Below, in pieces: positions 13,631 through 14,609 of a DNA stretch of 64,000 bases (position 1 is the stretch's first letter; every line of letters starts with the position of its first letter). The DNA comes from a virus, in IMG/VR virus record IMGVR_UViG_3300042564_004498, positions 1 through 64,000 of that record; one strand, 5' to 3'. The notes beneath the pieces were generated by a model. The model was not told the origin of the DNA. It saw nothing but the letters and a program-made list of their open reading frames with translations, and did no database searches. The position numbers were made by a program, and so were the translations under genes.

Positions 13631-13719
13631 ATGTGTGTGTACGCTCTACCATTATAGCTAAAACTTGGTCACCAGGATTACGTTTGTTGGAATCGAACCA
13701 ACGACTTTACACTACACAT
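13631..13719 (-). ncRNA. circularly permuted tRNA-like RNA (YrlA-module-like), copy 2
   Basis: T arm gttgg-ttcgatt-ccaac lies 5' of D arm tagctataatggtagagc; ends pair via gtgta/tacac. Confidence 0.7.
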
Positions 13720-13720
13720 T

Positions 13721-14365
13721 TTATTTTAATTTTCGACCTTTAACCCAATCTTCTTGAAGATAAATGTTAAGGTCTTCTTTTTTTATTTTTTTATTCTCAT
13801 CACCTTTAGTTATCCAACAAGTACCAAATTGTGAATTTTTATTACCTATTCCTGTATTTTTTTTTAACTTAGATAACAATTTTTTTGTCTTTTCCGAATG
13901 ATTTTTACCTAACCACCAACCTGATGATTTATTCCTACCATCTTGAAATGTTTTTTTAGCAGTCTCATATAAAATTACCACCATTTTATCTCTAAATTCT
14001 TTATTTTTCCATTTTTCAGTAATCCATTTAGATGAGCCTTCACACATTTTTTTATGATGTTCTTCACTAATGAACCCACCTTGACCACCTTCTTTAAGGT
14101 TTAAACATAAATTATCGGATAATAATACTTTATCAACAATTTTTGTTTCTCTAATTATCAATTCTTCCCTTGATGGAAGATATTCTAAAATTTCTTTAGT
14201 ATGGTTTTCGTTACCATATTTTCGGATAGAATAACGTAATCGTTTTCCACTACCCATATAACCATCTTCTAAATTAGAGGTACTGTGCATTCCGATGTAA
14301 TACATTTTAGTAACATTACACGTTGTTTTATAAATGTAATGTATGTGTGGTTTTTTTCTTGGCAT
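13721..14365 (-). CDS. GIY-YIG (Seg-like) homing endonuclease with NUMOD3-like motif
   Basis: YIYKTT...YYIGMH...YMGSG; KNHSEKTKKLLS. Confidence 0.85.
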   Translation of the reverse strand: MPRKKPHIHYIYKTTCNVTKMYYIGMHSTSNLEDGYMGSGKRLRYSIRKYGNENHTKEILEYLPSREELIIRETKIVDKVLLSDNLCLNLKEGGQGGFISEEHHKKMCEGSSKWITEKWKNKEFRDKMVVILYETAKKTFQDGRNKSSGWWLGKNHSEKTKKLLSKLKKNTGIGNKNSQFGTCWITKGDENKKIKKEDLNIYLQEDWVKGRKLK

Positions 14366-14419
14366 CTTGTTCTTTTACTATAAATATCTCGAATAATAGT
14401 AAAAGAACAAAAATGTCTA

Positions 14420-14512
14420 TGGTGGTATCAGATGGGTTCGAACCACCGGCACAGAGTCTTTCGTTACTCCTGCTCTACCAAAGGAGATAAATCTCCACTG
14501 AGCTATAATACC
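14420..14512 (-). tRNA. aberrant tRNA-like gene (Phe-like, GAA) with D-loop hairpin insertion and non-canonical anticodon loop
   Basis: Acceptor GGTATTA/TGATACC plus encoded ACCA; T arm ggtgg-ttcgaac-ccatc; D loop carries ggaga-ttta-tctcc; anticodon loop AACGAAAG. Confidence 0.65.
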
Positions 14513-14520
14513 ATATATTT

Positions 14521-14609
14521 TAGTGAGTGTATGCTCTACCACTGAGCTACTTGCTTTTCATCAAGATACACAAGGCCGGAATTAAACCTGACGACACAAC
14601 ACTCACCTA
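14521..14609 (-). ncRNA. circularly permuted tRNA-like RNA (YrlA-module-like), copy 1
   Basis: gtgagtgt...T-arm-like gtcagg-tttaatt-ccggc...cttg/caag closed acceptor...D arm tagctcagtggtagagca...acactcac. Confidence 0.7.

What the first reader, a model, noticed from the sequence alone, without database searches (positions are those of the whole stretch)
13631..14609. Two circularly permuted tRNA mimics without a Ro60-binding module
Seen: at 14521-14609 and 13631-13719 the T arm precedes the D arm, the acceptor-equivalent stem is short and closed by a loop, and the molecule's ends form the anticodon-equivalent stem. Both keep GTGT/TACAC and a single-base bulge. Each starts right at or after a stop codon. 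Knowledge: this topology is that of the tRNA-like module of bacterial YrlA Y RNAs, which normally also carry a Ro60-binding helix and sit next to rsr. Neither is visible here. Inference: stand-alone tRNA-elbow decoys, which cannot be charged or cut at an anticodon, titrating host tRNA-targeting enzymes; alternatively permuted tRNA precursors.
Basis: partly seen in the sequence, partly recalled or inferred. Interest (0 to 1): 0.85.

Follow-up and report, generated by a model that had tools for sequence, protein, structure and literature searches.

The report
Permuted tRNA mimics in jumbo phage
Two small RNA genes of an uncultured giant phage fold like transfer RNAs with their halves swapped and no anticodon loop; related phages keep the fold through compensating mutations yet encode no Ro60-type partner, so they are probably free-standing tRNA decoys or scaffolds whose target is unknown.

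Summary
On the minus strand, 13719-13631 (A) and 14607-14522 (B) each read: end stem, 5-nt variable loop, T arm, capped acceptor-like hairpin, U8-A9, D arm, end stem. There is no anticodon loop. A model built from them finds only these two copies in the 145-kb record. B recurs in every related jumbo-phage contig I examined; A recurs in some. Across 16 distinct sequences, 90% of cells pair and 10 of 22 pairs show compensatory changes. U8, G18, G19, A21, C48, T54, U55, A58 and C61 never vary.

Both lie in a non-coding RNA island. The order is promoter, B, a remodelled tRNA, A, a larger structured RNA, terminator. In this window a GIY-YIG homing endonuclease has split the island.

They are not tRNA genes or permuted tRNA genes. 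Their closest known relative is the tRNA-like module of YrlA Y RNAs. The Ro60-docking strand is absent. Three complete relatives (~310 kb) encode no TROVE, DUF2828, Ro60-vWA or RtcB.

Best reading (about 0.5): trans-acting, non-decoding tRNA-elbow mimics. Expression, RNA ends and partner are untested.

Earlier notes of this scan (AI notes, not independent evidence) report similar permuted mimics on other DNA, there with Ro60, DUF2828 or DUF7873 partners. I class this as a new variant of a known kind.

The parts
13631..13719 (-). Element A: permuted tRNA-like RNA, 89 nt
   Evidence: Sequence read. YrlA alignment at 25.4 bits. R1 score 72.3 bits. Homologues in L001/L002, L007/L010 and L252.
14522..14607 (-). 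Element B: permuted tRNA-like RNA, 86 nt, a divergent copy of the B family
   Evidence: Sequence read. YrlA alignment at 24.7 bits. R1 score 73.1 bits. B homologues score 88-98 bits in every related contig examined. Its exact T arm occurs in no other viral contig.
13708..13719 (-). A: 5' strand of the end stem (ATGTGT, bulged A at 13713, GTGTA). It pairs with 13631-13641.
   Evidence: The inner five pairs take the place of the anticodon stem. The extra base varies among relatives.
13686..13702 (-). A: T arm (GTTGG, TTCGATT, CCAAC)
   Evidence: T54, U55, C56, A58 and C61 are kept.
13661..13685 (-). A: acceptor-like hairpin (AAAC, 17-nt cap, GTTT)
   Evidence: Compensatory change from AAAC/GTTT to AACC/GGTT in relatives. 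The cap keeps GTAATC...GACCAA around a variable pentaloop.
13643..13660 (-). A: U8-A9 and the D arm with G18 G19
   Evidence: The 10:25 pair changes from G-C to A-U in L007.
14599..14607 (-). B: 5' strand of the end stem (GGTGAGTGT). It pairs with 14522-14530.
   Evidence: Relatives carry GGTGGACGT/ACGTCCAC or GTGTGGGTGT/ACACCCACA, which are fully compensated.
14575..14592 (-). B: T arm with a bulged A (14589) and U at position 56
   Evidence: In other B copies the loop is TTCAAAT and the 53:61 position is a U.C or A.C mismatch.
14550..14574 (-). B: acceptor-like hairpin (CTTG, 17-nt cap, CAAG)
14533..14549 (-). B: U8-A9 and a canonical D arm (GCTC, AGTGGTA, GAGC)
14423..14512 (-). Context: remodelled tRNA between B and A, with an extra hairpin in the D loop and an 8-nt anticodon loop AACGAAAG
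   Evidence: Rfam tRNA at 38 bits. The ARAGORN parse is unreliable. It is conserved in relatives, and the D-loop hairpin shows compensatory changes.
13721..14365 (-). Context: GIY-YIG homing endonuclease inserted in the 4-nt spacer between the tRNA and A
   Evidence: phrog_314 at 1e-33; weak SegE_GIY-YIG and NUMOD3 matches. T-even homing-endonuclease hits. Absent at this site in all relatives.
13393..13623 (-). Context: downstream structured RNA (Z), closed by TCTGTGATAAGA/TCTTATCACAGA
   Evidence: Its core 18-mer occurs in 22 viral contigs.
15044..15074 (-). Context: Bacteroidota-type promoter (TTTG, N19, TAnnTTTG) upstream of the unit
   Evidence: 12 matches in the window against 5.7 expected. 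In relatives the same promoter type sits directly before B.
13142..13170 (-). Context: intrinsic terminator downstream of the island
   Evidence: 11-bp stem followed by a T run.

Best explanation
A and B are genes for small, stable, non-decoding RNAs that reproduce the L-shaped body of a tRNA in circularly permuted order. The body comprises the D arm, T arm, variable loop, elbow and core tertiary contacts. The RNA ends pair into a 9-11 bp helix where the anticodon arm would be, and the acceptor end is sealed by a hairpin.

Shown: this fold, and its conservation in related phages.

Inferred:
- They are transcribed with the neighbouring remodelled tRNA and a larger structured RNA from a host-type promoter.
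- Processing of the adjacent tRNA and cuts in the A/U-rich spacers release them.
- They then act in trans by offering a tRNA elbow and core to a protein that recognises tRNA shape.
- Because they can be neither charged nor decoded, they would work as decoys or scaffolds.
- They do not depend on a phage-encoded Ro60-type ring protein.
For: Fold:
- Permuted order read directly.
- YrlA is the only Rfam family that aligns across both.
- After the halves are swapped in silico and the ends bridged with an arbitrary 7-nt loop, ARAGORN at a relaxed threshold calls a 73-nt tRNA in both.

Selection on the fold:
- 14 and 16 distinct sequences give 89.6% and 90.3% of cells paired.
- 10 of 22 pairs have changes on both sides.
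- At most 1 of 500 shuffles reaches the observed values.
- Slid controls pair 30-58% of cells.

Selection on the tRNA surface rather than on the stems:
- U8, A9, G18, G19, A21, G46, C48, T54, U55, A58 and C61 are invariant.
- End-stem sequences and capping loops differ between subclades.

Trans-acting role: the window keeps both elements intact although B has lost its usual promoter and leader context, and a homing endonuclease separates A from the tRNA.

No Ro60-type partner: TROVE, DUF2828, vWA_Ro60 and RtcB are absent from this record and from three 100%-complete relatives. Positive controls rang elsewhere.

Accessory character: the island's optional modules (A, X, Y) vary between relatives. 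The layout parallels T4, where tRNAs, segB, tRNA-Arg, rnaD and rnaC sit together. SegB-type endonucleases are associated with phage tRNA loci that counter tRNA-cleaving defences (PMC13096335).
Against: - There is no transcript, RNA-end or binding datum.
- No candidate partner protein lies next to the genes.
- B has a non-canonical 53:61 pair, and the window's B has U56. Both could weaken the elbow.
- The window's B variant is seen nowhere else, so it could be drifting.
- Only about 11 B and 4 A sequences from one phage clade were available, so many of the covarying cells are inherited rather than independent events.
- A host Ro60, or an unrecognised phage partner, is not excluded.
Confidence: 0.5

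Rival explanations
1. They are the RNA half of a Y-RNA-like particle after all. They would bind the host's Ro60 (Rsr), or an unrecognised phage ring protein. Alternatively they compete with host YrlA for the effector that docks on its tRNA-like module, uncoupling the host Ro60-YrlA-RtcB system.
For: - R1, built only from the phage elements, scores the tRNA-like modules of Ro60-adjacent RNAs in Flavobacterium, Taibaiella and Chitinophagaceae at 44-49 bits. These share the GUGUC variable loop and a zero-spacer mini acceptor hairpin.
- The promoters point to a Bacteroidota host. Seven of the ten Bacteroidota genomes picked up by the generic pattern encode TROVE.
- The tRNA-like domain of YrlA is described as its effector-binding domain, with an unknown interactor (10.1101/312249).
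Against: - The host-type docking strand GUGUCGUAGAAAAG with its partner CUUUUCG is absent from A, B and their flanks. GTCGTAGAA is not enriched in the window and does not occur in the island.
- The end stems of A and B covary freely, so they are not a sequence-specific handle.
- The T stems (GAGG, GUUGG) differ from the GCAGG that is invariant in Bacteroidota YrlA.
- No TROVE, DUF2828 or vWA_Ro60 in three complete relatives.
Confidence: 0.2
2. They are cis-acting punctuation or stability elements. On this view, compact tRNA-shaped folds direct or block RNases so that the neighbouring tRNA-like RNA and the large RNA Z mature correctly, and the elements have no role of their own.
For: - In relatives B ends 8-12 nt before the tRNA and A begins 4 nt after it, so their ends coincide with tRNA processing sites.
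- All lie in one promoter-to-terminator unit.
- A is dispensable in most relatives.
Against: - Sealed acceptor stems of 3-5 bp are poor RNase P substrates. Only the YrlA form with a 7-bp stem was cut by RNase P (PMC4201824).
- A simple hairpin would do for punctuation, yet the elbow and core tertiary nucleotides are invariant.
- The window retains A although 0.7 kb of endonuclease gene now separates it from the tRNA.
Confidence: 0.15
3. They are true circularly permuted tRNA genes. Their transcripts would be circularised and re-opened at the acceptor end to give decoding tRNAs, as in some algae and archaea.
For: The order of the halves is that of a permuted tRNA gene. The rotated sequence is callable as a tRNA once an artificial anticodon loop is supplied.
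Against: - No nucleotides are available for an anticodon loop. The ends pair continuously for 9-11 bp, with no bulge-helix-bulge motif.
- The acceptor-like stem has 3-5 Watson-Crick pairs, no discriminator and no CCA site.
- No tRNA splicing endonuclease or RtcB in the phage clade.
Confidence: 0.02
4. They are non-functional debris of tRNA-gene rearrangement in a recombination-prone, endonuclease-ridden tRNA island.
For: - The T arm of A is identical to a T arm common in real phage tRNAs, with more than 119 contigs hit.
- Truncated tandem tRNA genes can imitate the pattern, as in L053, L035 and L049.
- The window's B is an outlier.
Against: - Compensatory changes occur in every helix, including the end stem, which has no counterpart in a tandem-tRNA junction.
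- B is retained in all related contigs, including three complete genomes.
- T4 tandem-tRNA junctions score at most 24 bits with R1, against 72-98 bits for the family.
Confidence: 0.03

Closest known systems
YrlA (Y RNA-like A, Rfam RF02553), the tRNA-mimicking Y RNA bound by bacterial and mycobacteriophage Ro60/Rsr (PMC4201824; structure 10.1101/312249)
   Same: Identical connectivity: 5' strand, variable loop, T arm, capped acceptor-like hairpin, D arm, 3' strand. The same tRNA tertiary nucleotides are kept. There is no free CCA end and no anticodon loop. YrlA is the only Rfam family that aligns to both elements. R1 cross-detects Ro60-adjacent YrlA-type RNAs of Bacteroidota.
   Different: There is no lower stem with the Ro60-docking strand (GNCGAAN0-1G, or GUCGUAGAAAAG in Bacteroidota). 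The size is 85-89 nt rather than about 115-125 nt. The end helix is plain and covarying. There is no rsr or rtcB neighbour, and no Ro60-family gene in complete relatives. The elements sit in a phage tRNA/ncRNA island instead.
Circularly permuted tRNA genes of Cyanidioschyzon merolae, some green algae and nucleomorphs, and Thermofilum (from established knowledge; cited generally in PMC3400036)
   Same: The 3' half of the cloverleaf is encoded upstream of the 5' half, with an intervening loop at the acceptor end.
   Different: Those genes restore a 7-bp acceptor stem and a real anticodon loop, through a bulge-helix-bulge junction, a splicing endonuclease and a ligase. None of these features or enzymes is present here.
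Phage T4 tRNA cluster with segB and the stable RNAs rnaC and rnaD (species 1 and 2)
   Same: The same kind of locus: tRNAs, a GIY-YIG homing endonuclease and small stable RNAs of unknown function, co-transcribed and abutting a tRNA.
   Different: rnaC and rnaD are not permuted tRNA-like. R1 gives no hit on them.
[quoted passage not shown]
   Same: Non-decoding RNAs that keep a tRNA elbow and upper half, and are thought to be protein-binding scaffolds.
   Different: Those families have different connectivity and non-tRNA sequence. None was matched in the island at E<=10.
Permuted tRNA mimics with DUF2828 or DUF7873 partner genes
   Same: Anticodon-less, back-to-front tRNA look-alikes inside phage tRNA clusters.
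   Different: DUF2828 is absent from this clade, although it was detected in four other viral records in the same search type. There is no conserved closing 'handle'. No gene of about 245 aa lies directly upstream. DUF7873 could not be searched genome-wide.

Membership tests
YrlA / bacterial Y RNA | tRNA-like module in permuted order (T arm, capped acceptor-like stem, D arm) with tRNA tertiary nucleotides | tested here: met
   U8, G18, G19, A21, C48, T54, U55, A58 and C61 are invariant in 14 sequences.
YrlA / bacterial Y RNA | Ro60-binding module: a stem formed by the RNA ends that carries GNCGAAN0-1G on its 5' strand (PMC4201824) | tested here: not met
   The end stems are plain covarying helices. 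The host-phylum version GUCGUAGAA is absent from the island.
YrlA / bacterial Y RNA | Encoded next to rsr (Ro60, TROVE), often with rtcB | tested here: not met
   No TROVE, vWA_Ro60 or RtcB in this record or in three 100%-complete relatives. Positive controls rang.
YrlA / bacterial Y RNA | Reaches the Rfam RF02553 gathering score (69 bits) | tested here: inconclusive
   A and B score 25.4 and 24.7 bits. Genuine Ro60-adjacent Bacteroidota RNAs also fail, at 35-44 bits, so this threshold does not discriminate here.
YrlA / bacterial Y RNA | Physically bound by Ro60/Rsr | not testable with these tools
   The host is uncultured and unidentified. Immunoprecipitation or a gel shift is needed.
Circularly permuted tRNA gene | Termini supply an anticodon loop through a bulge-helix-bulge junction | tested here: not met
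   The ends pair continuously for 9-11 bp with at most one extra base.
Circularly permuted tRNA gene | 7-bp acceptor stem with a discriminator and CCA site, exposed after processing | tested here: not met
   The stems have 3-5 Watson-Crick pairs: AAAC/GTTT, CTTG/CAAG, CGG/CCG.
Circularly permuted tRNA gene | Splicing endonuclease and RNA ligase available | tested here: not met
   PF01974 and PF01139 are absent from the phage clade. Bacterial hosts are not known to have the endonuclease (established knowledge).
Canonical tRNA | Detected by ARAGORN or Rfam RF00005 in native order | tested here: not met
DUF2828-partnered phage tRNA mimics (scan notes) | DUF2828 gene in the genome and a conserved closing handle | tested here: not met
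   PF11443 is absent from G000 and G003-G005 but found in 4 of 38 other viral records. No conserved handle.
DUF7873-partnered two-headed tRNA mimics (scan notes) | A DUF7873 gene of about 245 aa directly upstream of one RNA of about 360 nt carrying two modules | tested here: inconclusive
   Flanking ORFs gave no such Pfam match, and the two modules are separate units. I lacked the accession, so no genome-wide search was run.

The most novel reading that the evidence does not exclude
Jumbo phages of Bacteroidota make partner-less 'headless Y RNAs'. These would be bare copies of the tRNA-shaped effector-binding module of host YrlA, without the Ro60 handle. In infected cells they would either uncouple the host Ro60-YrlA-RtcB RNA surveillance and repair particle from its effector, or soak up an immune protein that recognises tRNA shape. 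That would make them RNA-only counter-defence genes carried in a mobile tRNA island spread by an endonuclease.
Probability: 0.2. Interest if true: 0.8.

Novelty: new variant of a known kind. Interest (0 to 1): 0.55.

Why it matters
The tRNA-like module of YrlA is thought to dock an effector that is still unknown. An RNA consisting of that module alone, kept by selection in large phages that have no Ro60-type gene, shows that the module can have a job of its own. It also gives a minimal bait of about 85 nt for finding its interactor.

It adds to growing evidence that phage tRNA islands carry non-decoding tRNA look-alikes as well as replacement tRNAs. This bears on how phages deal with defences that target tRNA. 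These RNAs escape tRNA finders and the Rfam thresholds, so phage annotation misses them systematically.

Tried and rejected
- blastn of 12500-16500 against cultured phages matched only the homing endonuclease. No cultured relative carries the island.
- The exact T arm of the window's B occurs in no other viral contig.
- The T-arm 20-mer of A was useless as a probe, because it is a common tRNA T arm with more than 119 contigs. Re-screening those loci with R1 recovered one further relative, L252, and five unrelated permuted modules.
- The generic pattern for permuted modules is heterogeneous. Some hits (L053, L035, L049) are truncated tandem tRNA-Asn genes rather than mimics.
- T4 rnaC and rnaD were tested as possible homologues: no hit.
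- A group I intron or permuted intron-exon reading of the flanks was considered and dropped. There is no Rfam intron hit at E<=10, and the tRNA abuts A directly in relatives.
- A split tRNA made of the D half of B and the T half of A was rejected, because the acceptor strands are not complementary.
- A Ro60-like motif in the promoter-proximal leader of B (GTCGAAG in some relatives) overlaps the -7 promoter box and is not conserved. I treat it as coincidence.
- The CGAAAG in the anticodon loop of the neighbouring tRNA partly matches GNCGAAN0-1G. It is kept only as a lead.
- The DUF7873 accession could not be obtained. A candidate ORF next to tandem modules in L028 turned out to be a Mu-like protease.
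- No structure or complex prediction was run, because no protein partner is in view.
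Full report
**Observation.** The window is the first 64 kb of a 145.5-kb IMG/VR phage record, about 30% G+C and estimated 48% complete. The order is: a 5' strand, a 5-nt variable-loop equivalent ending in C48, a T arm, a hairpin-capped acceptor-like stem, U8-A9, a D arm with G18 G19, position 26, and a 3' strand. The 3' strand pairs back to the 5' strand. A spans 13719-13631 and B spans 14607-14522.

ARAGORN and the Rfam tRNA model do not call them. In a permissive Rfam scan, the only family that aligns across each is YrlA, at 25.4 and 24.7 bits against a gathering score of 69. 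Minimum-free-energy folds recover the end stems and T arms, but the energies are not remarkable, with z between -1.7 and -2.3. When the halves are swapped in silico and the open ends bridged with an arbitrary 7-nt loop, ARAGORN at a relaxed threshold calls a 73-nt tRNA in both. A motif scan and my covariance model find only these two copies in the whole record.

**Relatives and covariation.** A permuted-order pattern and an 18-mer from the downstream RNA brought in related viral contigs. Three of these are 100%-complete genomes of 308-318 kb, one with terminal repeats.

All carry a modular RNA cassette. Its order is:
- a promoter of the TTTG-N20-TAnnTTTG type and a leader;
- B;
- an optional RNA of about 190 nt (X);
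- a remodelled tRNA;
- optional A;
- an optional RNA of about 135 nt (Y);
- the RNA Z.

B is present in every related contig I examined. A is present in the window, L001/L002, L007/L010 and L252.

On a MAFFT alignment of 11 B and 3 A sequences, the permuted cloverleaf pairs 89.6% of cells. Ten of its 22 pairs change on both sides, no shuffle out of 500 reaches the observed covariation, and slid controls pair 30-56%. A model-based alignment of 16 sequences gives 90.3% and again 10 of 22.

Examples of compensation:
- acceptor-like AAAC/GTTT becomes AACC/GGTT, CGG/CCG or CTTG/CAAG;
- end stem GGTGAGTGT/ACACTCAC becomes GGTGGACGT/ACGTCCAC or GTGTGGGTGT/ACACCCACA;
- D-stem pair 10:25 changes from G-C to A-U.

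By contrast U8, A9, G18, G19, A21, G46, C48, T54, U55, A58 and C61 never vary. Selection therefore acts on helices as helices and on the tRNA elbow and core as sequence.

Caveats: all sequences come from one phage clade. B has a U.C or A.C at 53:61. The window's B is an outlier, with a bulged A in the T stem, U56 and an A-type capping loop, and is seen nowhere else.

**Context in the window.** A Bacteroidota-type promoter lies at 15074-15044 and a strong intrinsic terminator at 13170-13142, both on the minus strand. Between them lie two small ORFs, B, the remodelled tRNA (14512-14423), a GIY-YIG homing endonuclease (14365-13721), A, and Z.

In relatives the tRNA and A are 4 nt apart. The endonuclease is therefore a recent insertion exactly in that spacer, and the 'starts after a stop codon' detail is incidental. 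The layout mirrors phage T4, where tRNAs, segB, tRNA-Arg, rnaD and rnaC sit together. However, rnaC and rnaD are not permuted mimics, and T4's tandem-tRNA junctions reach only 16-24 bits with my model.

**What it is not.** A permuted tRNA gene must regenerate a 7-bp acceptor stem and an anticodon loop. Here the ends pair continuously, with one extra base in A and one mismatch in B. There is no bulge-helix-bulge motif. The acceptor-like stems have 3-5 Watson-Crick pairs. Neither a splicing endonuclease nor RtcB is encoded by this record or by the complete relatives. Debris of tRNA rearrangement is excluded by covariation in the end stem, and by retention of B in all relatives.

**Relation to YrlA.** The connectivity and the conserved nucleotides are those of the tRNA-like, effector-binding module of YrlA (PMC4201824; 10.1101/312249). 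A generic permuted pattern hits at least 120 bacterial genomes. In Flavobacterium, Taibaiella and Chitinophagaceae the hit lies beside TROVE and/or RtcB genes, the classic rsr-yrlA-rtcB arrangement. My phage-derived model scores those modules at 44-49 bits. Rfam's YrlA model gives them only 35-44 bits, so failing the Rfam threshold is uninformative for this phylum.

The host-phylum RNAs are 115-125 nt long. They carry a long lower stem with GUGUCGUAGAAAAG pairing to CUUUUCG. A and B lack this stem, and the motif is not enriched in the window. TROVE, DUF2828 and the Ro60 vWA domain are absent from this record and from the three complete relatives. Each search type had a positive control:
- TROVE was found in 5 of 38 other viral records and 13 of 50 bacterial genomes;
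- DUF2828 was found in 4 of 38 viral records.

A and B therefore work like the YrlA module but fail the tested defining features of a Y RNA.

**Wider class.** The generic pattern and model also pick up permuted modules in many unrelated viral contigs, often inside tRNA arrays. Of the nine such records that are at least 90% complete, two have TROVE, one has DUF2828 and six have neither. The set is heterogeneous and includes false positives.

Earlier notes of this scan report similar mimics on other DNA, with Ro60, DUF2828 or DUF7873 partners. I tested the DUF2828 lead and could not test DUF7873 genome-wide.

**Mechanism.** The fold, its conservation and the lack of a Ro60-type gene are shown. 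The rest is inferred:
- co-transcription from the host-type promoter;
- release by tRNA processing and cuts in the A/U-rich spacers;
- action in trans as an uncharged, non-decoding tRNA-shaped ligand for a protein that reads the elbow and core.

I put this at about 0.5. The main rivals are:
- a link to host Ro60 or competition with host YrlA for its effector (0.2);
- cis-acting processing or stability elements (0.15);
- true permuted tRNA genes (0.02);
- non-functional debris (0.03).

**Novelty.** The kind (YrlA-type tRNA mimicry) is known. Stand-alone modules without a handle or a Ro60-type gene, in a phage RNA island, were not described in the papers I could search. I class it as a new variant of a known kind, of moderate interest.

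Noticed in passing
window 14423-14512 (-): The tRNA between B and A has a good 7-bp acceptor stem and an encoded CCA. It also carries an extra hairpin inside the D loop (GGAGAT..ATCTCC; GGGGGA-TTCG-TCTTCC in relatives, i.e. compensated). Its anticodon loop is 8 nt (AACGAAAG), lacks U33 and can close as C-GAAA-G. In L017 it is replaced by another tRNA-like gene, also with an 8-nt loop (TGGGAACA). It probably does not decode. The CGAAAG partly matches the Ro60 motif GNCGAAN0-1G.
   Followed up: partly
window 13721-14365 (-): A GIY-YIG homing endonuclease is inserted exactly in the 4-nt spacer between the tRNA and element A, and is absent at this site from all relatives. The arrangement is the same as segB in the T4 tRNA cluster (L204).
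   Followed up: partly
L004:4580-4790 (+); also L007, L010, L015, L021: Optional structured RNA 'X', about 190 nt, between B and the tRNA. It is closed by ATTCTAA/TTAGAAT and has several internal helices. The stretch was not scanned against Rfam, so its family status is unknown.
   Followed up: no
L005:1230-1365 (-) approx.; also L008, L009, L011, L015: Optional structured RNA 'Y', about 135 nt, between the tRNA and Z. It is closed by GTAAACC/GGGTTTAC and contains a CGGGT-GAGA-GACCCG hairpin.
   Followed up: no
window 13393-13623 (-): The downstream RNA Z exists in a long form of about 230 nt (window, L003, L005) and a short form of about 116 nt (L001, L004). The two differ by one replaceable internal domain. 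Z contains TTACAGCAGA.
   Followed up: partly
L103:3979-4048, L123:7239-7296, L110:5181-5255, L121:1239-1318: Ro60-adjacent YrlA-type RNAs of Flavobacterium, Taibaiella and Chitinophagaceae score only 35-44 bits with Rfam RF02553 (gathering score 69). Standard annotation therefore misses Bacteroidota Y RNAs.
   Followed up: partly
L028:6620-6750 (-), L031:7298-7424 (+): Head-to-tail arrays of permuted tRNA-like modules, each closed by its own 4-bp stem, in proviruses without TROVE or DUF2828. In L028 they follow a Mu-like protease I gene.
   Followed up: partly
L027, L032, L036, L065, L069, L075: A separate family of permuted modules inside large phage tRNA arrays. They have conserved flanks (TCCAA upstream, AAAA downstream), almost no acceptor stem (CTTAATTG linker) and a recurring A.C mismatch in the closing stem. 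DUF2828 is present in the records of L032, L036 and L075, and also in L061's record, whose module was not assigned to this family.
   Followed up: partly
L053:3063-3281, L035, L049: Tandem tRNA-Asn genes with an intervening copy that lacks its 3' acceptor strand. This gives a false 'permuted' signal.
   Followed up: partly
G003:C1:303936-304352 and G004:C1:70267-70680: A 343-aa ORF with a weak, sub-threshold RNA-ligase (PF09414) match lies 5-8 kb from the RNA island in two complete relatives. Only G005 encodes a CCA-adding-type nucleotidyltransferase.
   Followed up: no
window 13665-13681 and 14554-14570 (-): The 17-nt capping loops of A and of the window's B are alike (GTAATC-NNNNN-GACCAA versus TGTATC-TTGAT-GAAAAG). 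They could extend the acceptor-like arm through G.A and U-A pairs, a 2x2 internal loop and a UC/GA step under a variable pentaloop. One variant reads GUGAUGA, the box C consensus.
   Followed up: no
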